Source: Mobula hypostoma (Eukaryota). From it: a DNA stretch of 64,000 nucleotides. The notes under the pieces were generated by a model, which saw nothing but the letters and a program-made list of their open reading frames with translations, did not search any database and was not told the origin of the DNA. The stretch is taken from NCBI RefSeq assembly GCF_963921235.1, contig NC_086097.1, positions 17,794,001-17,858,000 on the forward strand, read 5' to 3'. Each line of letters starts with the position of its first letter. The first letter of the stretch is position 1. Made by a program: the position numbers and the translations under genes. Of the stretch, positions 10,228 through 53,100 are shown in pieces.

Positions 10228-10600
10228 AAAACACGAGAAAATCAGCAAATTCTGGAAAACCAAAGCAGCACACACAAAATGCTGGAGGAATTCAGTAGGC
10301 CAAGCAGAACCTATGGAAAAGAGTAAACAGTCGATAGTTCAGGTTGAGATCCTTCAAGACTGGAAAGGAAGGGGGGAAGTCAGAATAAAGTGGACGGAGG
10401 GGAGGAAGAAGTACAAGGAGGCAGGTGATAAGTGAAACTGGGAGAGGGGGAGGGTGAATTAAAGAGCTGGGAAGTTGATTGGTGAAAGATAAAGGGCTAG
10501 AGAAGTGGGTGTCTGATGGGAGAGGACAGAAAACCATGGAAGAAAGGGTAAGGGGAGGAGCACCAGAGGAAAGTGATGGGCAGGTAAGGAGATAAGAATG
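10228..10600 (-). mobile_element. Penelope-derived short element (hammerhead core damaged) with candidate 12-bp TSD
   Basis: Same family as 2624-2967; flanks cattctgcattc (10216-10227) / cattttgcattc (10601-10612). Confidence 0.8.
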
Positions 10601-17100: not shown

Positions 17101-20100
17101 CTGGTCAAGGGAGCTCACCACATAATAGTAACGCGTGGAATCAGAAGATATCTGCCGAATATGGAACTGGGCTTCTGCGTGGTCGCAGCATCCAGAAAGT
17201 TGGCAGTTTTAGCGAAACTGCGTGAACAGATGAAGAGTCGGTCATCTTTGGTCCAAATCCCGTTTGGACCGTTGGGGTCACCAATGTAGTGATGTGCTAC
17301 ACACAGAGCTAGAAATAACGACACACAGTCTGTAGGTTCCACTCAAGACCAGTTTATTCAAACTTCATGGCACTGGCTTTTACGCAGTTCCGTTCCTGCC
17401 CTCTCCGGGCAGAAATGATGTCAGAGGTGCATTACAAAAGTCTTTTCCCGCACGCAGGCTTTCTTCCCTTGCTGGCGAAGAAGAAAGCCCAGTGTCATTT
17501 TGGGGCTGGCCGCTCTGCTGACGTGCACGCCATTTTGTGAGCCGGTTCGCCTGTGTAGAAAGTGGGTCGCCACACAGTCAACATTTTGGTCTAAAACCCT
17601 TCATCAGAACTGGAAAGGAAAGAGATAAAAGCCACTGTTAAAAAGTAGGTTGAGAGAAAGGAGCAGAAGCTGGCAGGTGGTAGGTGAAACCAGGTGAGAG
17701 TGAAGATGAGTGGGTGGGGGCAGATAATGAACTAAGAAGCACCTCATTCCTTCCCCCAGCTGCTTTTTCTGGCTTTTGCCTCTTCCTTTCTAGTCGTGAT
17801 GAAGGGTAAGACCCAAAATGTCGACTGTTTATTCTCCTCCTCAGATGTTGCCTGACCTAAGTTCCTCCAGCATTTTGTGTGTGTTGCTTAAGATTCAGCC
17901 GAATTTCTTCCATTTAAAAGATTTTTCCAACAAGCTTCTCTTTTAATTGCAGACTCTTCTTATTTGTTTTCCATAACCCTTCATGATTTGTACACTTCTT
18001 TTAAATGTCCTTTTAATCTTTTCTGCAATCCCTTTAAGATCTTCATGTTGATTTGAACCATTGTGCACAAAATGGACACAGTATTCCATTTGTGACTTAA
18101 CTAATCCATGGAACAAACTGCCAGCACAAGTGATGCATGTAAGCTCAATTTCAACATTTAAGAGAAGTTTGGACAGGTACGTGAATGGTAGAGCTATGAA
18201 GGGCTAAGGTCCCAGTACAGGTCAATAGTAGCAGGCAGTTTAAATCGTTCGGAACAGTCTAGATGAACCAAAGGGCCTGTTTCTGTGCTGTATCTTTCTA
18301 TGACTGTATAGCATTATTTCCTTTTGTACTCTAGCTTCTGTTTATAAAATCCTGGATCACTTATGTTTTAAGCATTTTGTCGAACCATTGTCAAATATTT
18401 GTGCATATCTACCCTCAGATCTCTATTCATGCATTTCCATTAGAACTGTGCTCCTTTGATTGTTTTGCTTCTGTTCATTTTCCTATCAAAATACATCATC
18501 TCAAAATTCTTTGCACTAAATTTCAAAATTCAAAAGAAATTTATTATCAAAGTACATATATGTCACCTTATACAACCCTGAGATTAGTTTTCTTGCGGGC
18601 ATACACTGTAAATCCAAAAACACAATACTGTAAGATCAATGAAAGAGCTCATCCAGCAGGACAAACTAACAACCAATGTGCAAAAGACAACAAACTATGT
18701 AAATTCAGAAGAAAAAATAATAATAAGTAAATAAGCAATAAATATCAAGAACGTGAGATGAAGAGTCCTTGAAATCGAGTTCAGTGATGGGGTGAGTGAA
18801 ATTGAGTAAAGTTATCCTCTCTGGCCAAGGGGTCAATGGTTGAGGGGTAGTAGCTGTTCCTGAATCTGGTAGTGTGGATCCTGAGGCTCCTGTACCTTCT
18901 TCCTGATAGCAGCAGTGAGAAAAGGGCATGGCCTGGATGGTGATGGTCCTTGATGATGCTTTCCTGTGACAGTGATCCATGTAGCTATGCTTTCTTTATA
19001 ATTGCTTATGTGCTGACACCAGGACAGATCCTCTGAAATGATAACACTGAGGAATTTTAAGTTGCTGACACTATTTATTTCTGATCCCCCGATGAGGCCT
19101 GGCTCATAGACCTTTGGTTTCTTCCTTCTGAAAGCAATAATCAGCTCCTTAGTCTTGCTGACATTGAGTGAGATATTGTTGTTGTGGCACCACTCAGCCA
19201 AATTTTCAATGTCCCTCTTATATGCTGATTTGTTGCCACCTTTTATTTGATGGTTCTTTTCATGTACCATATCTCCATCAATTTTATCGCTTTTCTGAAG
19301 TCTGTTACTTTATTGAAAGTTTTATGGCATTTTCAGAATTTGAAATTGTTTCATTTCCTTATTCCCTAATATAATTTAACTAGTCCCTGATAATAGGTCT
19401 CCTTTTACTACTTGGTTTTTACAGTCCTATGCAACGTTTTACTTTTTATGTAATAATTACTAGCTCATTCTCATTTTATTTTAGCCATCTCTTATAGTTT
19501 AGTCATATGTTCATTGAATACTCTGAAATATCTGTTTAAATGTTTCTCACAGTTCATCTACTATTATATCTTTTAATACAGTTTTGTAGTCTACTTCAGC
19601 CAATTTGTCCTTGCACTGAGGTGATTAGCTTTATTTAAGAGAATACCTTTGGACTTTTGTATACAGTATCAGTTTAAAATGCTATGAACGTTTTCATCAG
19701 ATTATTATCACTGTCACTAGTGAATCAGTTAGTATGAGAATGTCTTTTAATCATGTAACGTTATAGAAGAAGAAAGTAAATATAGATAGGAAAACTGATA
19801 ATATTCTGTGGAAATAAATTCTCACTCCTTTTTCATGTTTATCTGTATCTGTAGCTAAGTTGTTAACTGGGAATCTGGGATACTCATCTGAGCATGAATT
19901 ATATGAAATGTGCCCCAATTGAGTTCGCACTTAGTTGAATACTGATAGTAGTGCCTATAGATCAAACACCCTGATTTTCATTTTGGTCTTTGAACTGCAC
20001 ATTTACACAATTAACTGTGCTCTGTTTGTATTTGATCCTACACTGAATTGTCCATGCTTCAAGTAACAGTCTGCTGAAACTTGAACATAGTTACTATATT

Positions 20101-23100
20101 TTCTATGCAGATATTGATGAATGTATATTCCATGATATTTGTTTGAATGGACTTTGTACAAATACTGAGGGATCCTATACTTGCTCAGACTGCAATCCTG
20201 GATACAGAATATCAGATAACAGACAGGCATGTGAAGGTAGGTCTAATGGAGGTATGATGTAGAAATTGAATAACATCAACAGAATGCTTCTGTGGTTTGA
20301 AATAATGGAATTTATTATCCTTTACGCTGTAGACATTGATGAATGTTTATCTCATGATGCTTGTTTGAATGGACTTTGCACAAATACTGAGGGATCCTAT
20401 ACTTGCACAAACTGCAGTCCTGGATACAGAATATCAGAAAACAGACAGACATGTGAAGGTAGGTATAATGAAGGTATGTTTTAGAAATTGACTGCAATAA
20501 ACCAGAACATATCTGGCATTTTAAATAATGAAATTTATTGTACTTTATGCTATAGACATCGATGAATGTATATCCCCTGATGTTTGTTCCAATGGACTTT
20601 GCGTGAATATCGAAGGATCCTACATATGTTCAGTCTGCAATACAGGATACAGAACATCAGAAGACAAACGGACATGTGAAGGTAAGTATGGAGGTACAAT
20701 GTACAAGCTAACTGCAATTAAAGCATAATGATTCTGTCTATAATTCCACTGGTTGGTGATATTTCCATCTCTTGCCTTTAAATTAGATTATATTAAAATA
20801 TCACAAACAAGAGAATGTCTGAAGATGCGGAAAATCGGAGCAACACACACAAAATGCTAGAGGAACTCAGCAGGCCAGGCATCATTTAGGAAATGAGTAC
20901 AGTCAACGTTTCGGGACGAAACCCTTTGGCAGGACTATAGGCCAGTTAGTCTGGCTTCGGTGGCTGGCAAGATGTTAGAGTTGATTATTAAGGTTGAGGT
21001 TTCTGGGTACTTGGAGGCACATGATAAATAGGCTGTAGTCAGCATGGTTTCCTCAAGGGAAAATCTTGCCTCAAAAATTTGTTGGAATTCTTTCTAGAAA
21101 TAACCAGCAGGATAGACAAAGGAGAATCAGTTAATGTTGTGTACTTCGATTTTCAGAAGACCTTTGACAAGGTACCACACATGAGGCTGCTTAACAAGCT
21201 ACGAGCCCATGGTATTTCAGGAAAGATTCTGGCATGGATAAAGCAGTGGCTGATGGGCAAGAGGCAAAGTGTGGGAATAAAGGGAGCCTTTTCTGCCTGG
21301 CTGCCAGAAACTAATGTTGTTTTACAGGGGTCTGTGTTGGGGGTGATTCTTTTGCATTATATGTTAGTGATTTGGATGATGGCTTTGTTGCAAAGTTTGC
21401 AGACAATATGAAGGTAGGCAGAGGAGAAGATTGTTTTGAGGAAGTAGAAAGAAGCAGATTAGGAGAATGGGCAAAGAAATAGCAGATGGAATGCAGTGTC
21501 AGGAAGTGTATGGTCATGCACTTTGGTAGAAGAAATGAAAGAGTTAACTATTTTCTAAAAGGAGAGAAAATACAAACAACTGAGGTGCAAGGGGACTTGG
21601 GACTCCTTGTGCAAGATTCCTTAATTTGCTGGTTGAGCCTGTGGTGAGGAAAGCAAATGCAATGTTAGCATTTATTTCAGAAGGACTAGAATATAAAAGC
21701 AAGGATGTACAGTAATGTTAAAAATTTATAAAGCACCAGTGAGGTCTCACTTGGAGTATTGTGAGCAGTTCAGGTCCCCTTATCTTAGAAAGGATGCGCT
21801 GAAACTGGAGAGGGTTCAAAAGAAGTTCACAGAAATGATTCCAGGATTGAATGCCTTGTCATGTGAAAAGCATTTGATGGCTGTAGGCCTGTATTCACTT
21901 CATTCAAAAGAATGAAGGGTGACCTTATTGTAACCCATCAAATGGTGAAAGGCCTTGATACAGTGGATATGGAGAGAATGTTTCCTATGGTGGGAGAGTC
22001 TAAGACCGGAGGACACAGCCTCAGAATAGAGCTGCGTCCTTTTGGAACAGAGATGAGGAGGAATTTCTCTAGCTAGAGTGTGGTGAACCTGTGGAATACT
22101 TTGTTACAGGCAGCTGTGGAATCCAAATCTTTATGTATATTTAAAGCAGAAGTTAATAGATTCTTGATTGGTCAGGGCATGAAGAAATACGGAGAGAAGA
22201 CACGAGATTGGGGCTGAGAGGAAAATTGGATCAGCCATGATGAAATTCCGGAACAGGCTCGATGGGTCAACTGCTCCTATATCTTATGGTTTTGTGGAGT
22301 ATAAGAAATGGAGGAGGAGGAGGAGAAGATGGCGACGTGACACAGTGCACGTGGCCTCTCCAGTGAATGATATCTTTGTCAAGTAGGGTAGTGTGCACAA
22401 TTCTGATTTGATGGAGACAAATGTGAGAGTACAGAGGAACATCTGGAGAATCTTCTGAAATGCCCGCTTCGCTGCCATTGCTACTGTGTGGTAACTGGAA
22501 TCTCCGGAGCAGAAGTTTCCGAATCCTCGGCTTTGCTTGTTTCGGCGGCCGGGGTTAGGTCGAAAGCGCTCGGGAGGCTGCATCGGAGGTGCGAGTCAGA
22601 GGCTCGGTTTTCAGATGGATGGACTCAGTGTCAGCTGTGGTCGGCTGCTTCCAAGGCATCGGCAGTTGTCGGTGCCTTGGAGGTTTATGGCAGGGAGTTT
22701 CTCCCTTTTGCCGCCTGCTATTGGGGACTCAGGAGTCGATCAGGACTTGAGACTATTTTTTAACCGTGCCCATGGTCTGTTCTATATCAAATTATGGTAT
22801 TGTTTTGCACTGCTGTAACTATATGTTATAATTATGTGGTTTTGTCAGTGTTAGTCTTTGGTTTGTCCTGCTTTCTGTGATATCACTCTCAAGGAACATT
22901 GTATCATTTCTAAATGCATGTATGCATTTCTAAATGACAATAAAAGAGGACTGAGTGTTCTCAGAATCTAAAAAATGCAAGAGAACGAAATAAAAAGAGA
23001 GACTTCAGGATGGCTAAAAGGCATGAGGTTGCCTTAGTAGACAAGTGAAGGAAAACCCTGAAGAATTCTAAAGATATGTTAAGAGCAAAGGATTGCAAGG

Positions 23101-26100
23101 GACAAAATTGGTCCACTGGAAGATCAGAATGGTAATCATGCATGGAACCAAAACTGATGGGGGAGATGTTAACTGGATTTCTTGCATCTAAATTTTCTCA
23201 GGAGACGGACACAGGGTGGAGAGAAGTGAGGTAAAGCAGCGTAGAGTTCATGGATCCTATACAGAATACAGAGAAGGAGGTATTAGCTGTCTTGATGAAA
23301 ATTAGGGGGGATAATCCACAGGACTTGATGAGATGTTCCTTCAGACCCTGTGGGAGGTAAGTACAGAAATTGTATTGGCCCTAGCAGAGGTATTTAAATC
23401 ATCCTTAGCGACAGTCCTGCTGAAGGGTTTCAGCCCGAAATGTCGAATCTACTTGTTTCCTAGATGCTGCCTGGCCTGCTGAGTTCCTCCAGCATTTTGT
23501 GCGTGTTACTTATATTAAAATATGTTCAAATCCATTCTGCATAAATACCAATTATCTTAAACACAAAAGTTCAAATTGAAATATTTAGGTGATTTTTTAT
23601 ATCATTGCATTAGATAGCCGTATCTTGGTTTATAATTTTATCAGTTACATTGAAAGTGCAAGATCATTTAATATTCCATCGGAGTAAATTCAGAGAAAGT
23701 TTTTAATTATTCACATTTTTGCTGTTTATTTTCGTAATAAATTTATTTTCTGTTTTCAGCATAAGCACATTTTTGAGAATATTAGAAAATGATATAGACA
23801 TACAGAGTATTTCATAAACTGCAGTTGGCAAGATTTTGCAATTTTAGAATATTGAATATTAATTTTCCCCAAATTAAATCTGAACACAAAATGGAACATT
23901 GGATTAACATGGAAATACTAAATACAGTTATAACATGGCTAAAAATCAAATATGACATAGTCAAAGTCAATGGAAATGATAATAAGATTTGGCTGCTATA
24001 TGATTCAGTGTAAATTAGTTGAATTTGTAGACAAAGGATGGAAATATCTTCCCTTCACTATCGTCCCATTTTATGACACAATGGAAATCTAGGATCTTTT
24101 TTAGAAAATAACTTCCCACTAGGGAAAAGATACTTAATCAACTTCAGAGATAATTAGAGAATTTCTGTGTATCCTTTTTTCCAAATATTACTAACAAGCA
24201 AGTGTTCTTTAGTCTATGACTTTCATCATATGTCAGTCTAAATATTTACTTTCCATGCTCTTAAAATTCCATGATTCTGCAATTCTATTTTAGATTCTAA
24301 ATAATAAAAATATCCAGCCAGTTTTCTGAGTTAATTTATTCATACACTTCAGTTGTAAGTTTACACAGATTTATTCTGTTATATAAATAAAAAGAATAAT
24401 AAATCAGTGTCAGTGAATTTAAAGATGCCGATTGCAATAAGTGGACAATTTTGAATACAGTACTTATTTTAGACCTCCAAGAAGCTTCTTGATACATTAG
24501 CATTCTTTATCTATTAGCAATGCTTCTAACTAAAGTGTAGGGAACTGAGAAAAACAATGACAAATATGTGAAAGATATACAAAGCACAGGTGGAAGTCTT
24601 CAGTCAAGTGATAAAAGTAAACCAGGAGCCAATTCTCTGCTGGTTGACTGTTGATATGGTTTCCTGCACACCAGAAAGACAGGAAATCGTTTGTAGACAG
24701 TGACCCAGATTAATGTTGAAATGGAGAATCCATCTGTTTGAGTCAGGTGGTCAGGAAGTGATCCAACTCTACCATTAAGGGGAAGCCCCAGGATTCCAAA
24801 GACAAAGTAAAGGGACAGAAACTTCAGTCCTTGAACTATTTACTTGACCTTTGTGTTCAAGGAATAATACACTGTGCATTTGCATTGCATCCTATGCATT
24901 TAAAGTAATGGAATATGAGACTCATGTAAAAACGGACTTATGTATAATGCTTTATATGAAATAAATGCTATTTCCATTAGTCAGCAAGTCAACAACTGTA
25001 GGCCAAAGTAAATAAGAAGATGATACTGTATAGGGGGTGACACAGTAGGGTAGTGGTTAGTGGATCACATTACAGCACCAGTCAGTGATCAATGATTGGG
25101 GTTCAATTCTTGTTGCTGTCTGTAAGCAGTTTGTAAATTCTCCCCATGACCGTGCGGTTTTCCTCTGGGTGCTCTAGTCTCCTCTGTTTCTCTAAAGACA
25201 TACATTTAGGGTTGGCAAGTTGTGGACATACTATGTTGGTGCTAGAAACATGATGACATTTGCAAGCTGCCCAGCGCAATCCTCGTTGATTTGATTTGAC
25301 ACAAACAATGCATTTTGCTGTATGTTTCAAGGTATATGTGACAAATAAAGTTCATTTTTTAATCTTAAGTCATTCAAGAACCAAACGTCTAGTACGAGAG
25401 GGCATGACTTAAGGATTGAAGGGCCCCCGTTCAGAACAGAAATGCGAAGAAATTTTTTTAGTCAGAGGGTGATGAATCTATGGAATTTGTTGCCATGGGC
25501 AGCAGTGGAGGCCAAGTCATTGGGTGTATTTAAGGCAGAGATTGATAGGTATCTGAGTAGCCAGGCCATCAAAGGTTATGGTGAGAAGGCAGGGGAGTGG
25601 GACTAAATGGGAGAATGGATCAGCTCATGATAAAATGGCGGAAAAGACTCGATGGGCCAAATGGCCAACTTCTGCTCCTTTGTCTTATGGTAATTTTTCC
25701 TGTAACCCTTAACTCCTATAATCCAAAGGTCTGTCCATCTCAGCCTTGAATGACACCGTTTCTGCAGATGTTTGGAGTAAACATTTCACTGTATTCCCTG
25801 TGATAAAATAATTTCCTCCCTGACCATTTTAAGTAGGCAATTTTCTATTCTAAAACCATATCCCCAGTTATAGATTTCCCCATAAGAGTCAAATCTATCT
25901 CAGAATCAAATCCATCAAGCTTCCTCAGATTCTCCTTTATTTCAATGAAATCACTTCTCATTTTCCTAAACATCATTAACCATAGGCACACTCTTCGTTC
26001 ATTTTTCGTAAAATAATCCTTTCATTACAGACGTCAATATACTAAACTTCCTTTGAATTGTCACTAGTACAACTATATACCCCCTCAAAATAAAATTAAA

Positions 26101-29100
26101 ACTTTATGCAGTATTTCAGTCATTGAAATACATTTGGAAATATCATCAAAACAAAGTTGGGGGTGGGAAGAAACATTGCCATATCTAATTATTTTCTGTG
26201 AGAAATGGTCCAATTTGCAGGAAGAAAGGATGTTATGTATTTTATACAAAAGAAATGAAGGAATAAGCAAAAGGGCAGAGAATAGGATAGCTCTTTCTAA
26301 CTCAGCAGTGAAATGGTTTGTTCTTTTCATGGAAAAGAAGTAGTTAACCAAAGAAAATAATTTACTGTTAAGGAAAATAAGTTTTAAAAAAAGGTTAAGA
26401 TGGCTTCTTTAACAGAAGAGACTTTGCTTGACATGTTTATTTCTAGTTAATTTTATTGCATGTAGCATGTGATTTTTTTTTAAAAAAGTAATGCCAGTGT
26501 GCCAGCTTACACAATTCTATGGAAACTTCTTTGCGGCGTACAGCTCGTACATTATTTGGAAAACAGTAACATTAATACAAAATTGATTTAGAGTACTAAA
26601 AGTCTTTTAAGTGGTTGTAATTTTAATGATAGATCAAACTAGTTAAAAATATTGTTGGGTTTTATTCTGCCATCTGTTTTTGTTAGAATTGAAGGAACTC
26701 AAAATCTGTGCAGTTATTTATTATTTCGTAGATTCTAAATGATATGTTTCAAAGCAGTAGACCTTAAAATATTAATGTCAACATATTAATATTTTAGAAC
26801 CATTGAACTATGCGGTACTGAAAATCAAAGTTATCCAATATACAGCTTGCCAGAAAAGCATTTAAAAATATCTGGCAAATTCTTTAATGCTTATATTGTA
26901 ATGTAAACCAGACAGCAGAAATAATATTTCCATCTGACTTAGCAGTCCTGAGGTACTTATTGAAAATACAAGGATGGTAACAAGCATTTTAGGGATGTTA
27001 ATGAATAAAATCTTCAAATATATTGGAACACCAACAATGCAGGCTTTATTGCCACCGCAGGAATGTTTGTGATTTTTTTTATAGCACAGAAGAGGCAGTT
27101 ACTATCATCAGGCTTCAGTTAAGCCTAAAAGTTCCCTGGCATCCTTCCCCGGGATATAACCTTGTTTTGCTGATTTTTGGAGCAAGGATGGCCTTTGATA
27201 AGTTACATAACACAAAAGTGTAAGCAAGACAATAATGAGAAAACAAGTATTAGTATAACTCAGACAATAATGTAAATAAAGTGGCATTTCCTATAATGTA
27301 TTATTGGTTGCCACAGCTCTGATGAATAGTAATTTTAAAATGCTGCAAAAATTTTCCTATTTAAACCTGCTTTAATGTGTTTGACACCCATACATTCACC
27401 TTAATCTGCCTTATTCTCAGAATCAGAATTACTGCTGCATTGAATGAGACAATTTGGCTAATCAAGACTATATCATCCTCCTCTTTCAGCCCTGGAACTA
27501 TTTTTATCCATTTCAAATTATTACCTAGCTTTCTTTAGAATACGGTTGAATTGGTCTCCACTACCACCAGGCTGTGCATTCATGTAAACAAAAGCTCCTA
27601 ATCTCACTTGTTATTTTACTAATCAACAATATTTTTGACCTTTTAATCAACAGGAAATGTTTCTTTTTATCTATGCATGCAAGCTTGATTTCACTGTTTA
27701 AGAGCAGTTTGGATAGGTACATGGATGGTAAGGGTATGGAGGGCTATGGTCCTGGTGCAGGTCAATGGGATTAAGCAATTTAAATGGATTGGCATGGACT
27801 AGATGGGCCGAAGGGCCTGTTTATGTACTGTACTTTTCTGTGACTCTATGACTACTCTGTAGCCTTCATGATTTTTTTTCTATCATTCTACTTGTATTTG
27901 TCTCTGTTCTTAGGAGAACCTTCCCAGTTTTTCCTGTCTATCCGTATAAGAAAAGATCCTCATCTTTTCTGCTCTTTTTCTAAAGATTTCTTTCCTAAAA
28001 TGGGTATCCATAATTACCATTGTGGCTGAGCCAGTGTTTTATAAATGTGTGCACTACAGTTATTTACTAAGATTCTCCAACAGCACGTCCCAAATCCATC
28101 AAGAAGAAGAGCAGTATGGGAATACTTACCATCTGTTTTTGTGGCAGATTTTCACGATTATCAAACAATCAATTCATTTATTTTCTCTGAAAGCGCAATG
28201 CCTTCCTGATAGAATAGTGGCTTTCTACTCTCAAACAGGAAGGAGCTTCAGATGTTGCTTCCTCCCTTCTTTCAATTTCATTACATCCTACACCACCAGC
28301 AAAAGCAGGGTACATATTATTGCATGCAGTTAAGATGTGAAAGAGCCTTGATAGAGTGGATATGGAGAGGATGTTTCCTATGGTGAGAGAGTCTAGGACC
28401 AGAGGACAGAACTTCTAAAGAGAGGGGTGTCCTTTTAGAACGGAGATGAGGAGGAATTTCTTTAGCCGGAGAGTGGTGACTCTGTGGAATTTGTTGACAC
28501 AGGCAGCTATGGAGCACAAGTCTTTAAGTATATTTAAGCCAGAAGTTTTATACATTCTTTATTGGTCAGGACATGAAGGAATATTGGGAGAAGGCAAGAG
28601 ATTGGAGTTGAGAAGGAAAATGGATCAGCTATGATGAAATGGCAGAGCAGACTCGATGGGCCAAATGTCCTAATTGTACTCCTATATCTTATAAAATACA
28701 TATCCCTCTTTTGCCCTATATGCTTACCTAGGCACGCTACCACAGTCATGTGTCTTTTCTGGAAACTTGCCTGAGCTTCTCCCTCCTCCTTCCCTCTTCT
28801 TCAATTCCTCACTCTGTCCCCCCTTTACCTCTTCTCTTCTCCTCATCTGCTTATCATCTCCCACTGGTGTCCTTCCTCCTTCCCTTTCTCCCATTGTCTA
28901 TTTTTAATCTCCTATAAGATTCCTTCTTCTCCAGCCCTTTACCTTTACTACCTATCACCACCTAGCTTCCTACATCAAACCTAACTCCCCCACCCACGTG
29001 ACTTTACCTATCACTTTCTAGCTTGTTCTCCTTCTGCCCTGCCGCCACCTTTTCATTCTGGCATTCTCCCCCTTCCTTTCCAGTCCTGAAGAAGGGTCTT

Positions 29101-32100
29101 GGCCAGAAATGTTAACTGTTTATTCATTTGCATAGATGATGCCTGACCTAAGTTCCTCCAGCATTGTGTATGTGTGTACGTGTGTGTTTGTGTCTTTAGG
29201 TCATCGGTGTTAAATTCTTCACTAGGTCATACCATCTGCTATTTGTTACATTCATGTTCTATTTTTAATCTTTTGACCACAGTTGCAAATGAACTGCAGA
29301 TTGAACAAGTAAGTATAGTCAGTCAATCTTTGTGACCTTGGAAATATTATCATCCTGAAAAAAAAATGTGTAAAATCCATGTGTTACTTAAGAAGAAAAT
29401 TAAATAAACTTTCTTTGTATAGAAAATCTCTACCTTCTTAATATTGTGATGGCCTGCACATTGAAATATAACTTAATACACAAACACCAGTCTGAAAAGA
29501 ACTATAAGCATGAAAATTCATCATACATTTTAGATTGACTGATGCTGAAGAGACCATGTTAGTCATGCTGAGTTGCTGCAGTTCAGCTTGCAATATGTGG
29601 CAGATTGATAGTCATAGTCAGACTTTATTGATCTCGAGGGAAATTGGGTTTCGTTACAGTTGCACCAACCAAGAATAGAGTATAGATATAGCAATATAAA
29701 ACTATAAATAATTAAATAATAATATGTAAATTATGCCAGGAAATAAGTCTATGACCAGCCTATTGGCTCAGGGTGTCTGACCCTCCAAGGGAGGAGTTGT
29801 AAAGTTTGATGGCCACAGGCAGGAATGACTTCCTATGACGCTCAGTGTTGCATCTCGGTGGAATGAGTCTCTGGCTGAATGTACTCCTGTGCCCAACCAG
29901 TACATTATGTAGTGGATGGGAGACATTGTCCAAGATGGCATGCAACTTGGGCAGCATCCTCTTTTCAGACACCACCATCAGAGAGTCCAGTTCCATCCCC
30001 ACAACATCACTGGCCTTACGAATGAGTTTGTTGATTCTGTTGGTGTCTGCTACCCTCAGCCTGCTACCCCAGCACACCACAGCAAACATGATCGCACTGG
30101 CCACCACAGACTCGTAGAACATCCTCAGCATCGTTCGACAAATGTTAAAGGACCTCATTCTCCTCAGGAAATAGAGACGGCTCTGACCCTCTTGTAGATA
30201 GCCTCAGTGTTCTTTGACCAGTCCAGTTTATTGTCAATTCGTATCCCAGGTATTTGTAATCCTCCACCATGTCCACACTGACCCCCTGGATGGAAACAGA
30301 GGTCACCGGTGCCTTAACCCTCCTCAGGTCCACCACCAGCTCCTTAGTCTTTTTCACATTAAGCTGCAGATAATTCTGCTCACACCATGGGACAAAGTTT
30401 CCTACTGTAGCCCTGTACTCAACCTCATCTCCTTGCTGATGCATCCAGCTATGACAGAGTCATCAGAAAACTTCTGAAGATGGCAAGACTCTATGCGATA
30501 GTTGAAGTCCGAGGTGTAAATGGTGAAGAGAAAGGGAGACAAGACAGTGCTGCTGATCACTCTGTCTGACACACAGTGTTGCAAGCACACATACTGTGGT
30601 CTGCCAGTCAGGTAATCAATAATCCATGACACCAAGAAAGCATCCACCTGGATCGCTGTCAGCTTCTCCCCCAGCAGAGCAGGGCGGATGGTGTTGAACG
30701 CACTGGAGAAGTCAAAAAACATCACCCTCACAGTGCTCGCTGGCTTGTCCAGGTGGGCGTAGACACGGTTCAGCAGGTAGACGATGGCACCCTCAACTCC
30801 TAGTCGGGGCTGGTAGGCGAACTGGAGGGGAGCTAAGTGTGGCCTAACCCCGTAGGCCGGAGCAACTCCAGAACAAGTCTCTCCAGGGTCTTCATGATGT
30901 GGGAGGTCAATCCCACCGGTCTGTAGTCATTGAGGCCACTGGGGCACAGCGTCTTTGGCACAGGGACGAGGCAGGATGTCCTCCACAGCACAGGAACCCT
31001 CTGGAGACTCAGGCTCAGGTTGAAGACATGGTGAAGTACTCCACATAGCTGAAGGGCACAGGCTTTGAGCACCCTGGTGCTGACACCATCTGGGCCTGCA
31101 GCCTTGCTTGGGTTGAGACGTTTCAACTGTCTTTTCAGCTGTGAAGCCCACCATGGTGGTTTCGTGTGGGGGAGGGGTATAGTCATGAGAGCAGGGTGGG
31201 GGACTGTGAGGAGGAGTAGTAGGGGAGAGTGGAATATGTGTTGGTTGGGGGCCGACAGCAGATGAATCATGTGGGGGATGGGCAGGGGCCACAATGTCAA
31301 ATCTGTTAAAGAACAGGTTAAGTTCGTTGGCCCTGTCCACACTGCCTTCAGCTCCTCTGTTGCTAGTTTGCCCCCACTCCAGACCTCTCTCATGTTGTTC
31401 TGTTGGAGTTTCCACTCAAGCTTCCTCCTATACCTGCCTTTAGCCTCCCTGATCCTGGCTTTCAGGTCCCTCTATATTGCCTTCAGCTCCTCCTTATTTC
31501 CATCTCTAAACACCCTCTTTTTTGCATTCAGGATGTTCTTAATGTCCTTTGTTGCCCATGGCTTGTTATTTGAATGACAAAGGACAGATCTTGCTGGAAC
31601 ATTGCAGTCCACACAGAAGTTGATGTAACCAGTGATGCACTCTGTGAGCCCATCAGTATCCTCTCCATGTGGCTCACAGAGTGCCTGCCAGTCTGTCACC
31701 TCAAAACAACCCTGGAGCTCCTCATAAGCTTCCTCCAACCATTTCCTCACTGTTCTCGAGGTTGCAGGTTTGCTCTTCACCAGAGGCATGTAGCAGGGTT
31801 TGAGATGCACTAGGTTGTGATCTGACCTTCCCAATGGGGGGAGGGGAGAGGAGCTGTATGCATCCTTAATATTAGCATACATCAAATCCAGAGTCCTCTC
31901 CCCTCTGGTTGTACAGCTCACATACTGCGTGAAGTTGAGCAGTGTTCTAGCCATGGTAACCTGGTTGAAGTCACCCGAGATGGTAATGAGGGCACTCGGG
32001 TGCTGTGTTTGTAATCTGGCTATGACGGTGTAAATGATGTTACACGTCGACGTCGGGTTGGCAGAGGGAGGGATGAACACAACAACCACAATTGCATGTG

Positions 32101-35100: not shown

Positions 35101-38100
35101 CTTTTCTTAGTTTGCCTTCTTCTCATTCATTTCCAGCTGATAAGTTCTAGCACAAATTTTCTTTACCATCTCTTTAAATTAAAACAAGGTCATTTCCAAA
35201 GTTATGATGGCAAAACTTAACATAACAAATAGAAGCTGGAGTGGACAATACAACAGTTAACAACAGGAATTCTGCAGATGCTGGAAATTCAAACAACACA
35301 CGTGCTGGTGAACGTAGCAGGCCAGGCAGCATCTCTAGGAAGAGGTACAGTCGATGTTTCAGGCTGAGACCCTTCGTCAGGACTAACTGAAGGAAGAGTT
35401 AGTAAGAGATTTGAAAGTGGGAGGGGGAGGGGGAGATCCAAAATGATAGGAGAAGAAAGGAGGGGGAGGGATGGAGCCAAGAGCTGGACAGGTGATTGGC
35501 AAAGGGGATATGAGAGGATCATGGGACAGGAGGTCCGGGGAGAAAGACAAGGGGGGGGAACCCAGAGGATGGGCAAGGGGTATAGTCAGAGGGACAGAGG
35601 GAGAAAAAGGAGAGTGAGAGAAAGAGTGGGTGTATAAAAATAAATAACAGATGGGGTACGAGGGGGAGGTTGGGTATTAGCGGAAGTTAGAGAAGTCGAT
35701 GGTCATGCTATCAGGTTGGAGGCTACCCAGACGGAATATAAGGTGTTGTTCCTCCAACCTGAGTGTGGCTTCATCTTTACAGTAGAGGAGGCCGTGGATA
35801 GACATGTCAGAATGGGAATGGGATGTGGAATTAAAATGTGTGGCCACTGGGAGATCCTGCTTTCTCTGGCGGACAGAGCGTAGGTGTTCAGCAAAGCGGT
35901 CTCCCAGTCTGAGTCGGGTCTCGCCAATATATAAAAGGCCACATCGGGAGCACCAGATGCAGTATATCACCCCAGCCGACTCACAGGTGAAGTGTCGCCT
36001 CACCTGGAAGGACTGTTTGGGGCCCTGAATGGTGGTAAGGGAGGAAATGTAAGGGCATGTGTAGCACTTGTTCCGCTTACAAGGATAAGTGCCAGGAGGG
36101 AGATCAGTGGGGAGGGATGGGGGGACGAATGGACAAGGGAGTCGCGTAGGGAGCGATCCCTGCGGAAAGGGGGGTGGGGGAGGAAAGATGTACTTAGTGG
36201 TGGGATCCCGTTGGAGGTGGCGGAAGTTACGGAGAATAATATGTTGGACCCGGAGGCTGGTGGGGTGGTAGGTGAGGACCAGGTGAACCCTATTCCTAGT
36301 GGGGTGGTGGGAGGATGGAGTGAGAGTAGATGTGCATGAAATGGGGGAGGTGCATTTGAGAGCAGAGTTGATAGTGGAGGAAGGGAAGCCCTTTTCTTTA
36401 AAAAAGGAGGGTATCTCCCTCGTCCTGGAATGAAAAGCCTCATCCTGAGAGCAGATGCGGCGGAGACGGAGGAATTGCGAGAAGGGGATGGCATTTTTGC
36501 AAGAGACAGGGTGAGAAGAGGAATAGTCCAGATAGTGTGAGAATCAGTAGGCTTATAGTAGACATCAATGGATAAGCTGTCTCCAGAGACAGAGACAGAA
36601 AGATCTAGAAAGGGGAGGGAGGTGTCGGAAATGGACCAGGTAAACTTGAGGGCAGGGTGAAAGTTGGAGGCAAAGTTTATAAAGTCAACGAGCTCAGCAT
36701 GCGTGCAGGAAGCAGCGCCAATGCAGTCGTCGATGTAGCAAAGGAAAAATGGGGGACAGATACCAGAATAGGCACGGAACATAGATTGTTCCACAAACCC
36801 AACAAAAAGGCAGGCATAGCTAGGACCCATACGGGTGCCCATAGCTACACCTTTAGTCTGGAGGAAGTGGGAGGAGCCAAAGAAGAAATTATTAAGAGTA
36901 AGGACTAATTCCACTAGACGGAGCAGAGTGGTGATAGAGGGGAACTGATTAGGTCTGGAATCCAAAAAGAAGCGGAGAGCTTTGAGACCTTCCTGATGGG
37001 GGATGGAAGTATATAGGGACTGGACATCCATGGTGAAAATAAAGCGGTGGGGGCCAGGGAACTTAAAATCATCGAAAAGTTTAAGAGCATGAGAAGTGTC
37101 ATGAACATAGGTAGGAAGGGATTGAACAAGGGGGGATAAAACCGTGTCGAGGTATGCAGAAATGCGTTTGGTAGGGCAGGAGCAAGCTGAGACAATAGGT
37201 CTGCCAGGATAGGCAGGTTTGTGGATCTTGGGTAGGAGGTAGAAACGGGAAGTGCGAGGTGTGGGAACTATAAGGTTGGTAGCAGTGGATGGGAGATCGC
37301 CTGAGCGGATAAAGTCGGTGATGGTGTGGGAGACAATGGCCTGGTGCTCCTTAGTGGGATCAAGATCAAGGGGTAAATAAGAGGAGGTATCCGCGAGTTG
37401 TCGCTGTGCCTCGGCAAGGTAGAGGTCAGTACGCCAGACTACAACAGCACTCCCCTTATCGGCGGGTTTAATAATAAGGTTAGGATTAGTTTGGAGGGAG
37501 TGGAGAGCAGAGCGTTCCGAAGGAGTGAATTTGGAATGGGAACAAGGTGCGGTGAAGTCGAAACAGTTGATGTCCCATCGGCAGTTAGCGATAAAGAGAT
37601 CCAGAGCAGGCAGAAGACCAGAGCGGGGTGTCGATGAAGAGGAGGGTTGAAGACGGGAGAAGGGGTCATCGGTGGGGGTGGAAGAGTCCTTGCCGAAGAA
37701 GTAGGCTCGGAGACAAAGACGGCGGAAGAAGAGTTCCGCATCGTGGCGAACACAGAACTCGGAATACAGCAGTCAATCCCGTTTCACCATTTGGTATGAC
37801 TCTGGCTGATCTTGTGCCTTCTCCGTTTCCCTAATATTCTCACCTAAAAAGGAAAAACTTTAGACTTAAAGAGAGCATCTATACTTACCCAAAATTTTCT
37901 TCATATTTGAAGAATTCTCAACAGTGCTATGTTCTTATTTCAAACAAATCTCATCACATTTATGAGGAATAATTCTCCAAATTGCTTTGTCTTTTGCCAG
38001 CATTTTAAATGGGTGCATCAGCACTTTAAGTTGCATTAATTTTACATGGCATTCTTTAGCCAATATGATTGAAATAATGTTCTGTTAATGTAAAAGTATG

Positions 38101-44100: not shown

Positions 44101-47100
44101 ATGGGTGAGGTGCTGGAAGACTGGAAGGTGGCAAATGTTGTGCTTTTATTTATGAAGGACTGTAAAGGGAAAGGATGGAAACAGAGAATGACAGTGGGAG
44201 GTTGTTTCTCAAACTGGGGGGCCATGACTAATGGTGTGCTTCAGAGGTTCTATTGTTGTTTGACGTCTATGTCAACAGCAACACACACACAATGCTGGAG
44301 GAAATCAACAGGCCAGGCAGCATCTATAGAAAAGAGTAAACAGTTGACGTTTTGGGTTGAGCCCCTTCAGCTGGACTGGAAAGGAAGGGGAGAAGTCAGA
44401 GTAGGAAGGTGGGGGTGGGAAGGAAGAAGCACAAGAGGGCAGGTGATAGGTGAAAGCAAGAAAAGGGAAGGGGATGAAGTAAAGAACTGGGAAGTTGATT
44501 GGTGAACAAGATAAAGGGCTGGAGAAATTGAGTCTGATAGAGGACAGAAGACCATGGAAGGAAAGGAAAGGGGGAGGAGCACCAGCAGAAGATAATGGAC
44601 AAGTTAGAAGATAAAGTGAGAAAGGGAAATGGGAATGGGGAATGGTGAAGGGGGAGGTGTGGCATTTACCAGAAGTTCGAGAAATTGGTGTTCATGCCAT
44701 CAGGTTGGAGGCTACCCAGACGGAATATTAAGTGTTGCTCCTCCATCCTGATTGTAGTCTCATCCTGGCAGTAGAAAAGGTCATGTCAGAATGGGGATGG
44801 GAAGTAAAATTGGAATGGGTGGCCACCGGGAGATCCCGCTTTTTGTTTCAGATAGAGTAAAGGTGCTTGGCGAAACTGTCCCCCAATCTATGGCGGGTCT
44901 CACTGATATACAGGAGGCCACACCGGGAGCACTGGATACAGTAGATGACTCCCGCAGACTTGCAGGTGAAGTGTTGCCTCACCTGGAAGGACTGTTTGAG
45001 GTACTGAATGGTAGTGATGGAGGAGGTGGAGGGGCAGGTGTAGCACTTGTTCTGCTTGCAAGGATAAGTGCTAGCAGGGAGATCAGTGTGGGGGGACAAA
45101 CGGGTAAGTGAGTTGCGTAGGGAGCGATTCCTACAGAAAGTGTGGGGGGGGGGAATGGGAAAGGTATGCTTGGTGATGGGATCCTGTTGGAGATGGCGGA
45201 AGTTATGGAGAATTATGTGCTGAATGTGGATGGTAGTGAGGTGGTTGGTGACCCACTACAAACTGTTTGGGTTTCTTTATTTAATGAAGATGAATTTACA
45301 CTAGAGACAGTACAGAGAGGTTACTGTAACCTTGGGAGTGTAAATTTTTCTTCATACCAGAATCTAGAACAGGGGACATTGTTTCAATGTAAGGGATCAA
45401 CCTTATGGCAAAGAGCGAATCCTACTTCTTGGATTGTGAATCTTTAGAATTATTTACCCCAGAAACCTATAAAGGTTGAGTTGTTGAGTGTAGGAAGGCT
45501 GACGCAAAGTATTTTTTAAACTATAATATGCTCAACAATTACAAAGAATAAGTAGAAAAATGGAGTTGAGGTCTGGGTTAGATCATCCATGAGCATTGAT
45601 TTCCCATGCCAGCTTGCATTTCTCATGTATTAAGTAAAAAAAAAAATATCTTTGAAAATGAAAAATCAGTCTTTATCATATAAAACAGACTTGTTTGATT
45701 CCTTAAAATCGATTTACCTCCAGCAGCTGCTGTTCTAATACAGACCACCCTGTCTTCTAATAGAAAAAGAATATTTTCTTAACAAGTTCAGCCAGAAGTC
45801 TGAAACAAGATTGTATATATTTGGAAAGGATCTAAATAGATTGGCTTAATTGCACTTTCAGTAACATTGATTTAATATGTGTTTTGTTTCATTATTTTCA
45901 TATTTCTTCATTACTACCTTACATTTTTAATATTTTTCTTATGAATTTAGGTAACGCACCATTTTCTTCTGGTCTTTTTCCTTCTCATCTTTCCAAATGT
46001 TAAGTTTGATTAAATCTTTGACCCAATCGACTGCATTACTGTTAGCACACAATTTCAGTTGACCCCTTGAACTGAAGTATACTAGCTTCTGAATGCAATC
46101 CATTTAGGAAAAGGAGAAAGGATGAAGAGTAGGTGAAATAATACTATTTATTAGCAGCTACAATGAAAGCAAAAATAGAATCCATATTGATCCAGATAAA
46201 ATCTAAAAAGGATCATTGGCACTAATTGCTGCATCCTGCAGATGATCTAATAAAGAAAATTGTGTGGCAAGTGAAATATGGAGACAAATTCAAGAAAGTC
46301 AACTGCATCATTTTTAAATGGACAACAGGAATAAGGAAGTAAAATTCCTATAAGGTGTATAGGAATCCAGTCTAACCCAATTTGTAGAGAATTCATTAGT
46401 GGGGAATTCGCTATTCAATCTAATAGTAAAGAATGAACTGGATCCATCGAGAAGTGAAAGTAGGCAAGTACCCCGGTACTAGTGTGAATATCACAATAGA
46501 CTCAGTGATAATCATGGAAAAGAACAAAAATGTGGTCAACAGATTTGGAAGAAGTTGAATTTGACATGGTTTAAATAGAATAGATTAGCAAGGTCACAAA
46601 AGTTGAACAATCCATACCAGGCATGCATAAAAAGAGTTACTTTTTAATCCGGATAGCAATCACGATTTCAAAGGCAGAGTTTCGCAGAGGTTTCTCTTGA
46701 GTTGAGGAGCGACCAGTCAGCAAGAGGTATTGTGTAAAAAGAGCTATCTTTCAGTCAGGTCCACATTCAAGATTTAAAAAGCAGAGCTTCGAGCCAGGTT
46801 TCTCTGAGTTGGACAGTCCACACCCGGGGAGCGTGAAAAGAGCTTCTTTTTAATCAGGGCAGCGAGTGAAATTTTAAAAGCAGAGTTTTGCGGCAGTTTC
46901 TCTGAGTTGCTGAGCAACCAATCAACAAGAGGGATTCATTAGCAAGGGGAAAAACAAGTAACGCAGGTGCAAGCAGACCGGCCATTCTTGTGAGTGTGCC
47001 GGTCTTTAGGGTGGCTTAGGCAAGATCAGGTTTGGGTGAAATAAATTATCTTGTAATTTACTCTCTCTGTATTCATATTTGTTTATTCCTCACCTGCTTG

Positions 47101-50100: not shown

Positions 50101-53100
50101 GATGGAATTGATGGCTTTGTTGCAAAGTTTACAGACAATATGAAGATAGGTGGAGGGTCAAGCAGTTTTGAGGAAGTAGAGAGGCTATAGATGGACTTAG
50201 ATTAGGAGAATGGGCAAAGAAGTAACAGATGGACTACAGTGTTGGGAAGCGTATGGTCATGCACTTTGGTAGAATAAATGAAAAGGTTGATTATTTTCTA
50301 AATGGAGAGAAAATACAAAAATCTGAGGCGCAACTGGATTTTGAAGTCCTTGTGCAGGATTCCTTAAAGATTAATTTGTAGGTTGAGTCTGCAGTGAGGA
50401 AGGCAAACGTGATGTTAGCATTTATTTCAATTTATTGCACTAGAATATAAAAGGAGGGATGGAATGTTGAGACTTTATAAAGCACTGTTGAGGCCTCACT
50501 GGGAGTATTGTAAGCAGTTTTGAGCCCCTTATCTTATAAAGGATGTGCTGAAATTGGAGAGCGTTCAATGAAGATTCACAAAAATGTTTCCAGGATTAAA
50601 CGGTTTGTCATATGAAGAACGTTTAATGGCTCTGAGCCTGTGTTTGCTGGAATTCAGAAGAAAGAATGGTGACCTCATTGAAACCTACCATATGGTGAAA
50701 GGCTTTGATAGAGTGGATGTGGAGAGGATGGGAGATTGGGAGAGTCTAAGACCAGAGGACACAGCCTCACAATAGAGGGGTGTCCTCTTAGAATGGAGAT
50801 GAGGACATCTCATTAGCTAGCAAGTGGTGAATCTGTGCAATTCATTGCCACTGGCAGCTGTGGAGTCCAAGTCTTTACGTATATTTAAGGCAGAGTTTGA
50901 TAGATTCTTGATTGGTCAGTGAATGAAAGGATATGGTTATATGGCAGGAGATTGGGGATGAGAGGAAAAATGGCTCAACCATGATGAAATGGCAGGGCAG
51001 ACTCGATGAGCCAAATGACTTAATTCTGCTCCTATAGCTTATGGTCTTATGATCTAAACCAAGCGTTTGGTTTTGTTGCTAGAGGGTTCAAAATAAAGGT
51101 GGGTAAGTTGTGTTAAATCTTATGGAATTTTGGTTAGAGCTCTCTTGGAATACTCTGCACAGTCCTAGTTGCCATATTATAAAAAGAAAACGGCCAATAG
51201 AGTGAGTGCAAAGCCACAAATTTGAAAGAATACATATCAGGAAAAAATGAATAGCCTGATATCTTTCTTAAGCAACAGGTGGTTAAACCAGTACCTAACA
51301 GAGGCTTTTAACATGCTGATAGGTTTCAATAGAGTGATACACAAAGAAAGCTTCCATTTATGAGGGAGCAATACTAGAGGGCATCTATATAAACCAGATG
51401 CCAAGGAATTCAGAAGAATCTTGAGAACATGAAACTTGCTAATATAGCGAACAATGGTACTGAATAGAAGTGATGCATTTGAAGGGAAGGAGTAGGGAAT
51501 AGAGATTGTGTGCTGATAGATTTAGGTAAGAATAGACAGCAGATAGTTCAAATTGAACATAGAAGCTGTTGTGGATTGGTTAAGCTTCATGTAGTATATT
51601 CTCTGCATTCAACACTATCATACCCTCAAAACTAACCACTAATCTCCAAGACCTAAGCCTTGATATCTTCTTTTGCCATTGGGTACTTGATTTCCTCACT
51701 TGAAGACCCCAGTCTGTTTGGATTGGCAACAACATCTCCTCCAAAGTCACCATCAACATAGGTGCATCACAAGGCTGTGAGTTTAGTCCTGCTCTGCTTG
51801 CTTTATACTTAGGACTGTGAGGCTAAGTATAACTCCAACACTGCATTTAAATTTGCTGATGACACCACTGTTGTTGGCCAAATCAAAGATGGTGATGAAT
51901 TGACATATAGGTGGGAGATTTGAAAATCTAATTGAGTGGTACCATAACAACAACATCTCATTCTACTTCAGCAAAAACAAAGTGCTGATTATTGATTACA
52001 GGAGGAAGAAATTGAAGGTCTATGAGCCAGAGTTCATTATGGGATCAGAGGTAGAGAGGGTCAGTAACTTTTAATTTCTGGGCATTATCATGTCAGAGGA
52101 TCTGTCCTAGGACCAGTACATAAATGCCATTACAAGGAAGGCATGGCAGCATCTCTACTTTCTTATAGGTTTGCCTAGATTTGGCATGTCATCTAAAATT
52201 TCGACTAACTTCTATAGATGAACAACGGAGAGTACCCTGATTGGTTGCATCATGGCCAATGCCCAAGAATAGGAAAGTCTTCAGGGACATAACTAATATC
52301 CTCCTTCTTTAAAGAATAGAGTTGCCCTTTCTCCACACCTGCATCGTCTCCATTTCCCGGTTATCGGTGTTAAGTCCATCTTACTGCTGCCTTAACAGGA
52401 TAGAGTTCCTCTTGTTCTCATTAACCACCCAATGAGCCTCCGCATCTGACATACCATTCTCTGCAACGTCTGCCATCTACAATGGGATTCTACCACCAAG
52501 TGCATCTTTACTCCCCCCTCCCCCCCCCACCGACTCTCTGCTTTCTACTGGTATACTGGTATCGCTTCCTCCATGATTCCCTTGTCCATTCGTCCCTCCC
52601 CACTAATATTCATCATGGCACTTATCCTTGCAAGTGGCCAAAATGCTGCACATAACCATTCATCTCTTCCTTCACCTCCATTCAGAGTCCCAAACAGTCC
52701 TTCCAGGTGGGACAACACTTCACCTGCGAAACTTTTGGGGTTATCTGTTGTATCCAGTGCTCTCGATGCAGCCTCTATATTGGTGAGACTTGATGTAGAT
52801 TGGGGAAACACTTTGTCAGCACCTCAGTTCCATCCACAAAAAGCAGAATTTCCAGATAGCCAACTATTTTAATTCCTGTCCCCATTCGTATTCCAACATG
52901 TCGGTCCGTAGCCTCTTCTTCTGTGCACTCTCAGGTTGGAATGGCCCTTTGCCTTTTCCACCTATCACTTCCCAGCTTCTTACTTCATTACCCCCTCCCC
53001 TCCTAACTGCCTTCACCTCTCACCACCTAGCTTGTTCTCCTTCCCCTCCTGACCTTCTTATTTTGGCATCTTCCCCCTTACTTTCCAGTCCTGCTGAAAG

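What the first reader, a model, noticed from the sequence alone, without database searches (positions are those of the whole stretch)
35261..37762. Neptune-type Penelope element carrying a minimal hammerhead ribozyme, likely the parent family of many short intronic hammerhead-bearing repeats
Seen: about 290 nt downstream of the GIY-YIG stop, the minus strand reads AGTC-CTGACGA-AGGGTCTCAGCCT-GAAAC-ATC-GACT (35349-35384). Related motifs occur near 2685, 3420, 10328, 15294/17575, 17792, 20901, 23413, 29081, 44341, 53086 and 53322. The by-eye consensus is CAGTC CTGATGA AGGGTCTCGGCCC GAAAC GTC GACTG: 5-bp stem I, catalytic cores, an extra A after CUGANGA, a GGG/CCC stem II and a palindromic ACGU stem III with a GUC cleavage triplet. 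Established: Penelope-like elements carry minimal type I hammerheads thought to cleave as dimers. Inference: this host has a high-copy non-autonomous hammerhead family; most copies were damaged by CpG decay (cgaaacgtcgac to caaaatgtcaac, which hits the catalytic G of GAAA). The 35349 copy keeps both cores.
Basis: partly seen in the sequence, partly recalled or inferred. Interest (0 to 1): 0.75.

Follow-up and report, generated by a model that had tools for sequence, protein, structure and literature searches.

The report
Dead Penelope retroelement with minimal hammerhead
This is a cut-short, broken copy of a known kind of jumping gene in what is likely a ray genome; its end carries an already described tiny self-cutting RNA motif that is likely inactive here, and the scattered short repeats are mostly stumps of sister copies rather than a separate mobile family.

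Summary
Observation confirmed. 35260-37762(-) is one insertion with a 13-14-bp target duplication. It is a 5'-truncated, frameshifted RT + GIY-YIG Penelope-like element with the Neptune linker; the closest named protein is from Mobula (89%). A minimal type I hammerhead starts 291 nt after the stop. All 11 other listed motifs are real. The same architecture occurs in 15 of 80 homologous loci from other sources, and such motifs in fish Neptune elements are published. Three corrections. (1) The short repeats look like ordinary insertion products: nested 5' ends, target duplications, an inverted pair with a one-sided tail. They are not a separate non-autonomous family. (2) Most resemble the sister copy at 44280-45251 more than the 35349 element. 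(3) The 35349 copy keeps its core but has lost the helix III palindrome (ACGU to ACAU), has no partner and is antisense to the host gene, so it is likely inert. Two variants look inherited rather than decayed: U11.1 (majority of aligned contigs) and A6C (4 of 12 copies). Copy starts pile up at the motif's front edge, not at the cut site. The scan has reported this family many times on other DNA. Ordinary; interest low.

The parts
35260..37762 (-). 5'-truncated Neptune-type Penelope-like element (subfamily B), single insertion, one hammerhead, no upstream terminal repeat
35247..35260 (.). left target-site duplication (14 nt, 2 mismatches to the right one)
37763..37776 (.). right target-site duplication
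36534..37760 (-). reverse transcriptase part (PF00078, E 2e-7; DKG and YIDD motifs); starts at residue 196 of an 889-aa relative; frame break near 36535
35677..36534 (-). thumb, CX4CXXC linker (36081), CCHH and GIY-YIG domain (PF01541 22.5 bits, cut-off 22.6); short out-of-frame stretch about 36118-36170; stop 35677-35679
35386..35676 (-). pyrimidine-rich 3' untranslated stretch ending in TACTAAC...YAG just before helix I
   Evidence: direct reading
35348..35385 (-). minimal type I hammerhead: core intact, U11.1, helix III segment ACAU (palindrome lost), AUC triplet
35260..35347 (-). sequence 3' of the predicted cut site, including the optional ~35-nt tail (35260-~35295)
44277..45251 (-). older sister-subfamily copy (A) with GIY-YIG remnant; hammerhead 44341-44378 with U4>A, A6>C, G12>A
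52296..53190 (+). older subfamily A copy with GIY-YIG remnant; hammerhead 53086-53123 with A6>C, G12>A
53322..53410 (+). stub starting inside the core, 15-nt target duplication, inserted in a LINE-like fragment
2612..3022 (-). 5'-truncated subfamily A copy, motif 2685-2722, G12>A, 14-nt candidate duplication
3358..3476 (-). old decayed copy, motif 3420-3457
10228..10596 (-). 5'-truncated subfamily A copy with tail, 16-nt target duplication, 3-nt deletion in the core
15228..17908 (.). head-to-head inverted unit: minus copy (17575-17705, continuing 15228-15296) and plus copy (17744-17908, with tail); 21-nt target duplication; split by an LTR retrotransposon at about 15297-17573
20806..20937 (-). 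stub starting at the front edge of helix I, with tail, abutting a LINE; A6>C, G8>A
23412..23510 (+). stub starting at the front edge of helix I, abutting a LINE fragment; A6>C
28791..29175 (+). 5'-truncated subfamily A copy; core intact but A11.1, U15.2, U17, A1.1

Best explanation
The locus is a 5'-truncated, frameshifted copy of a Neptune-type Penelope-like retroelement whose 3' end carries a minimal type I hammerhead motif that is likely inactive in this copy, and the short repeats are likely shorter insertion products of the same and sister subfamilies. Shown: domain order, linker, breaks, target duplications, staggered 5' ends, two 3' ends, one inverted pair, the lesions per copy. Inferred from published work on other Penelope elements: the element's endonuclease nicks the target, and its RT starts at one of two internal sites about 90 and 125 nt past the hammerhead (hence the optional tail). 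It copies RNA that is still uncut at the hammerhead and usually falls off early. In a full tandem master the two hammerheads would pair through the ACGU palindrome, or be helped by the element's protein, and cut slowly after GUC; this cut is probably not needed for insertion. The 35349 copy has no partner, has ACAU for ACGU, and is antisense to the host gene.
For: RT and GIY-YIG hits; 89% identity to a Mobula protein and 66-71% to Chiloscyllium proteins; colinear with 889-aa relatives from residue 196. Linker CKRNKCYTC and CCHH present, the published Neptune/Nematis mark (PMC8557442). Nested 5' ends at roughly -2377, -873, -790, -300, -290, -234, -93, -47, -19, 0, 0 and +5 from helix I. Target duplications at 5 of 8 units searched. 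Inverted unit with a tail on one arm only, as drawn for Penelope elements. Contig depth falls from 9.6 million at the motif to 0.56 million at 37634-37725, against 11-18 in the flanks (the tool says this is no copy number). In 80 homologous loci a descriptor found 19 hits in 15 loci and 0 in 5 shuffle passes; 19 of 19 have the extra A, G10.1-C11.1 and a palindromic helix III, none of which was demanded. Core positions C3-A6, G8, A9, G12-A15.1 and U16.1 have no variant row at 6% in four runs, and G16.2 is the majority letter (70-89%).
Against: No genome was available, so a non-autonomous subfamily elsewhere in the genome is not excluded. Three of 12 copies start within about 5 nt of the front edge of helix I, and 282 contigs end there with unrelated flanks; random truncation does not explain that pile-up. 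No covariation among the window copies. No Rfam hit; fold z -0.10. No target duplication found for 44341 or 53086, and only chance-level ones for 29081. No cleavage data for this family. Neptune versus Nematis was not tested by a tree.
Confidence: 0.87

Rival explanations
1. The short repeats are a distinct non-autonomous family (SINE-like or retrozyme-like) that replicates on its own short RNA with help from the Penelope protein.
For: Three of 12 copies start at the motif's front edge and contig ends pile up at 35383-35384. Retrozymes are reported from one chondrichthyan genome, mean unit 363 bp (bioRxiv 10.64898/2026.07.22.740005).
Against: Nine of 12 copies have different, longer 5' extents colinear with the ORF-bearing copies. 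None is in a head-to-tail tandem as retrozymes require; 53086 and 53317 are separated by LINE-like DNA and 53317 has its own target duplication. Depth declines gradually along the element.
Confidence: 0.08
2. The front edge of helix I is a 3' splice site of an intron in the terminal repeat, as in Drosophila virilis Penelope, so that stubs beginning there come from spliced RNA and sense copies may act as cryptic acceptors in host introns.
For: Both subfamilies have a pyrimidine tract and YAG ending inside helix I; subfamily B adds TACTAAC 13-20 nt upstream and subfamily A has G/GTAAAT at its stop. The D. virilis intron ends at the 5' end of helix I (PMC4209133). The 23412 stub joins LINE DNA at ACAG, where a related LINE fragment continues GGTGAGG.
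Against: None of the 15 joints shown (of 1271) has GT..AG ends on the element's strand; no loose-end row at 35382 with a shared consensus. Homologous hammerheads have T-rich upstream DNA but no consistent YAG at helix I. Subfamily B has GCTAAT, not GT, at the stop. The RNA label of the runs is a guess and they are contigs.
Confidence: 0.1
3. The 35349 hammerhead (or another intronic copy) has been kept as a working ribozyme that cuts the host pre-mRNA.
For: It is one of 2 of 12 copies with all core letters, and it lies between exons of a cbEGF-repeat gene.
Against: It is antisense to the exons, young (CpG o/e 0.57 against 0.27 for the window) so intactness needs no selection, and has lost the palindrome. 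All five sense copies carry core or helix lesions.
Confidence: 0.02

Closest known systems
Minimal hammerheads (min-HHR) in the terminal repeats of metazoan Penelope-like elements, including fish Xena, Poseidon and Neptune (Cervera and De la Pena 2014, PMC4209133; parts 1-2 of 4 read)
   Same: Type I, 4-5-bp helix I, one extra nucleotide between 9 and 10.1, palindromic 15.2-16.2, no helix III as monomer, mostly single motifs from truncated copies, opposite-strand pairs 100-700 bp apart.
   Different: Helix II is short (4 bp with a U-G pair). The majority of contigs like this copy have G10.1-U11.1 in place of the conserved G-C. No shark or ray is named in the parts read; supplements not seen.
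Neptune clade of endonuclease-bearing Penelope-like elements (Craig et al. 2021, PMC8557442; passages read)
   Same: RT then C-terminal GIY-YIG, DKG motif, CX2-5CXXC linker, CCHH motif, 5' truncation, inverted adjacent copy, 30-40-bp one-sided tail, hammerhead near the 3' end.
   Different: This copy lacks the N-terminal part (about 195 aa against P0010, about 340 aa against shark P0121) and the upstream repeat; it is not inserted in a (TA)n microsatellite; clear 13-21-nt target duplications.
PAc, Poseidon element of Anolis carolinensis (Frangieh et al. 2024, PMC11167929; parts 1-2 of 4 read)
   Same: Two 3' ends downstream of the hammerhead defining a tail; copies made from uncut RNA; there the hammerhead is protein-assisted and dispensable for insertion in vitro.
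   Different: Poseidon clade, no linker finger; its ORF starts inside the hammerhead, whereas in two homologous loci here the hammerhead lies about 160 nt before a candidate start codon.
Non-LTR retrozymes (bioRxiv 10.64898/2026.07.22.740005; part 1 of 5, passages and Discussion read)
   Same: Type I hammerhead related to Penelope terminal repeats.
   Different: Defined by tandem units with hammerheads in consecutive repeats; the window copies are solo or inverted.

Membership tests
EN+ Penelope-like element | single ORF with RT followed by C-terminal GIY-YIG | tested here: met
   broken by frameshifts in this copy; GIY-YIG score 22.5 is just under the Pfam cut-off 22.6
EN+ Penelope-like element | DKG motif and CCHH finger in the endonuclease | tested here: met
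   PADKG; FTC...YCIWCSRC...YIGE...EH...HF
EN+ Penelope-like element | 5' truncation, inverted adjacent copies, one-sided 30-40-bp tail | tested here: met
EN+ Penelope-like element | partial tandem forming an upstream pLTR | tested here: not met
   this copy has a target duplication directly at its truncated 5' end; homologous loci L002 and L014 do show it. Expected for a truncated insertion.
Neptune clade | CX2-5CXXC linker between RT and endonuclease | tested here: met
   CKRNKCYTC at 36081; shared with Nematis, where it is described as reduced
Neptune clade | RT phylogeny with named Neptune references | not testable with these tools
   no named reference sequences among the proteins returned
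min-HHR of Penelope elements | CUGANGA and GAAA cores, U16.1-H17 | tested here: met
   for this copy; for the family
min-HHR of Penelope elements | helix I of 4-5 bp, helix II, extra nucleotide after A9 | tested here: met
min-HHR of Penelope elements | palindromic 15.2-16.2 for dimer helix III | tested here: not met
   ACAU in this copy; met for the family majority, G16.2 70-89%
min-HHR of Penelope elements | conserved G10.1-C11.1 pair | tested here: not met
   G-U in this copy and in 65-74% of aligned depth; G-C in 19 of 19 homologous hits
min-HHR of Penelope elements | covariation of helices | tested here: inconclusive
   none above shuffles in 12 window copies; structure kept with unrelated letters in 15 of 80 homologous loci, but the descriptor demanded pairing
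min-HHR of Penelope elements | Mg2+-dependent cleavage as dimer | not testable with these tools
   needs an in vitro assay
Non-LTR retrozyme | head-to-tail tandem units each with a complete hammerhead | tested here: not met
Non-autonomous SINE-like family | shared fixed 5' end and head sequence not from the ORF-bearing element | tested here: not met
   staggered 5' ends colinear with ORF-bearing copies in 9 of 12; the 3 stubs share no head. Window only.

The most novel reading that the evidence does not exclude
In ray Neptune elements the hammerhead is not a working cutter during transposition but marks where the copied RNA begins (a transcription start, a splice acceptor or an RT barrier at helix I). 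Whole subfamilies have therefore amplified with inherited sub-optimal cores: G10.1-U11.1 in the young subfamily and A6C in an older one. The huge copy number makes this genome a natural record for testing whether Penelope hammerheads are passengers.
Probability: 0.3. Interest if true: 0.45.

Novelty: new member of a known kind. Interest (0 to 1): 0.2.

Why it matters
As found, it adds a ray lineage to a published pattern and corrects the reading of the short repeats. What Penelope hammerheads do is still called unclear (PMC8557442). A family with very many copies, inherited core variants and a pile-up of copy starts at the motif's front edge would let that question be tested by counting, and then by one cleavage assay. 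The single copy in the finding has no likely function.

Tried and rejected
Rfam: no hammerhead family at E<=10. An exact degenerate motif found 0 stretches in metagenome contigs; the protein alignment found no relative in viral contigs. No RNA holder is on record; runs marked RNA are guesses and all informative runs are contigs, so nothing here shows expression, RNA ends or strand. The one raw-read run laid (X21) gave 2 reads. No loose-end row at the predicted cut site among the 24 rows shown of 671: weak. Splice joints: none among 15 shown of 1271. Covariation in window copies: none (one search used a mis-registered structure and is discarded). The G12>A excess over C11.1>T (7:1) is not significant (p 0.07), so a G12A master is not claimed. 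Dimer folding by ViennaRNA gave no hammerhead dimer for this copy or for controls and is uninformative. A possible 13th very old copy at about 33690-34070 scored 143 against a shuffled maximum of 129 and was left out of all counts. Lunse et al. on dimer cleavage is not held; seen only as a title and a sentence in a review. Paper searches for Penelope + shark + repeat + Neptune, hammerhead + elasmobranch and Penelope / Mobula / transposable showed no description of this ray family; the library lacks most subscription papers and Repbase, and supplements of PMC4209133, PMC8557442 and the bioRxiv preprint, which may list such families, were not seen.

Full report
Observation. The minus strand at 35349-35384 reads exactly as stated, and helix I begins 291 nt after the stop codon at 35677-35679. 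With flank homology all 12 listed motifs are real. Rfam did not see them and the 38-mer is no more stable than its shuffles (z -0.10), though its best fold is helix I plus helix II with both cores unpaired.

The element. 35260-37762 is bounded by a 14-nt duplication with two mismatches. It encodes RT (PF00078) and GIY-YIG (PF01541, 22.5 bits against a cut-off of 22.6). It aligns to an 889-aa relative from residue 196 to 887 in two frames with a break near 36535; a short out-of-frame stretch lies at about 36118-36170. A shark relative has about 340 residues ahead of the matching point. The best of 1924 hits is a Mobula hypostoma protein at 89%, followed by Chiloscyllium and Stegostoma, so the host is likely a ray. 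The DKG motif, the CX4CXXC linker and the CCHH motif are present. Craig et al. give the linker as the mark of Neptune and Nematis, reduced in Nematis (PMC8557442, passages). 'Neptune-type' therefore holds by architecture; no tree was run. The copy is dead: truncated at insertion, frameshifted, with one hammerhead and no upstream repeat.

The short repeats. They share 3' ends and differ at the 5' end: about -873, -790, -300, -290, -234, -93, -47, -19, 0, 0 and +5 nt from helix I. Target duplications of 14-21 nt were found at 5 of 8 units searched. The copies at 15294/17575 and 17792 form one head-to-head unit with a 21-nt duplication and a tail on one arm only, later split by an LTR retrotransposon. 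Truncation, inverted partners and a one-sided 30-40-bp tail are the published insertion forms of these elements. In a DNA run that matches this locus's flank without a difference, summed contig depth falls from 9.6 million at the motif to 0.56 million near the 5' end, against 11-18 in the flanks (not a copy number, and the motif bin also collects sister subfamilies). This is a truncation ladder, not a fixed-length element. Over the 60 nt upstream of helix I, five of six short copies that retain such sequence are closer to the copies at 44280-45251 and 52296-53190 (62-82%) than to the 35349 element (20-62%); seven of eight tails agree. Those two longer copies carry GIY-YIG remnants. The 35349 element is a younger sister (CpG o/e 0.57 against 0.27-0.33), not the parent.

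The hammerhead. Two of 12 copies keep every core letter (29081, 35349); G12>A is in seven, A6>C in four. The 35349 copy has ACAU where the dimer needs the ACGU palindrome. Contigs aligned to it show G16.2 as the majority (70-89% in four runs) and no variant row at 6% for C3-A6, G8, A9, G12-A15.1 or U16.1, so the young family is core-intact and this copy has decayed. Position 11.1 is different: only 26-35% of depth has C, while neighbouring sites show 65-89% non-reference letters, so U11.1 is likely inherited (short contigs favour the reference letter, which is why I compare with neighbours). Four identical A6>C changes at a non-CpG site have a chance of 7e-5 to 1e-3 per site under assumed rates of 2-4%, so they too likely come from a master. 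A natural A6C hammerhead cuts at under 0.1 per minute (PMC3088659, passage). Among the window copies covariation does not exceed shuffles. In 80 homologous loci, many of which end before the 3' region, a descriptor found 19 motifs in 15 loci and none in five shuffle passes; 17 are sense and two lie in inverted repeats. Nine sit 95-302 nt after the estimated ORF end. All 19 show the extra A, G10.1-C11.1 and a palindromic helix III, which the descriptor did not demand. These are the traits Cervera and De la Pena list for minimal hammerheads, which they report in fish Neptune elements, mostly as single motifs, with no monomer cleavage and low dimer cleavage (PMC4209133).

How it most likely works. 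Inferred from the Anolis element (PMC11167929): the protein nicks the target and starts reverse transcription at one of two internal sites downstream of the hammerhead, giving the two 3' ends seen here (35259 and about 35295-35303). Every copy that holds both the core and the tail must come from RNA uncut at that site. None of the 12 starts at the cut site, and the blast shows no tail-only copy apart from the split one. In Anolis the hammerhead needs the protein to cut and is dispensable for insertion. Inherited U11.1 and C6 fit that. Host exons of a cbEGF-repeat gene lie on the plus strand at 14071, 38592, 41942 and 59905 (LTBP-like by recall), so the 35349 motif is antisense in the pre-mRNA, and all five sense copies are damaged.

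What is left open. Three of 12 copies start at the front edge of helix I. In the DNA run 282 contigs end at 35383 with unrelated flanks (agreement 0.32), close to the 307 at the 3' end; 859 more at 35384 are a mix dominated by sister-subfamily upstream sequence. Earlier notes of this scan reported this pile-up and read it as the RNA's 5' end; I confirmed the pile-up only in part and not its cause. A splice acceptor at that point is an alternative: both subfamilies have a pyrimidine tract and YAG there, and the D. virilis intron ends at helix I (PMC2377424 passages). No matching joint was among the 15 of 1271 shown and homologues lack a consistent YAG, so I give it 10%.

Verdict. A real feature, correctly spotted, of a published kind. 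The non-autonomous-family and parent claims are not borne out, and the copy singled out is likely inert. New member of a known kind; interest 0.2.

Noticed in passing
window 15297-17573 (-): Gypsy-like LTR retrotransposon remnant (full LTR about 17281-17573, partial LTR 15297-15375, RT remnant) inserted into the 3' strand of helix I of a hammerhead copy, with a 4-nt ACTG duplication.
   Followed up: partly
window 35336 and 35346; loose end at 35354: A-to-G changes on the element's strand at UA contexts are more frequent in runs guessed to be RNA (11-15% and 6-14%) than in the DNA run (3% and 2%), and one run has 24 contigs reading GGGGC for GAAAC. Possible RNA editing, but individuals differ and one of the runs is marked probably DNA.
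   Followed up: partly
window 38592-38714 and 41942-42067 (+): Two very similar cbEGF exons 3.3 kb apart, suggesting an exon duplication in the host gene.
   Followed up: no
window about 33690-34070 (+): Possible very old copy of the same 3' end with an almost erased hammerhead; score 143 against a shuffled maximum of 129.
   Followed up: partly
window 20937/20938 and 23411/23414: Both front-edge stubs abut LINE fragments with 3-4 nt of shared letters; the LINE does not visibly continue on the other side, suggesting template switching or target deletion.
   Followed up: partly
window 52296-53410 (+): Two independent insertions 230 nt apart in the same orientation inside one LINE-like fragment; both cores are damaged.
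   Followed up: partly
L002 910-1110 / 3976-4176; L014 1-357 / 3152-3509; L035; L064: Near-complete homologous elements with direct (L002, L014) or inverted (L035, L064) terminal repeats, each holding a minimal hammerhead; L002 has GUA as its triplet.
   Followed up: partly
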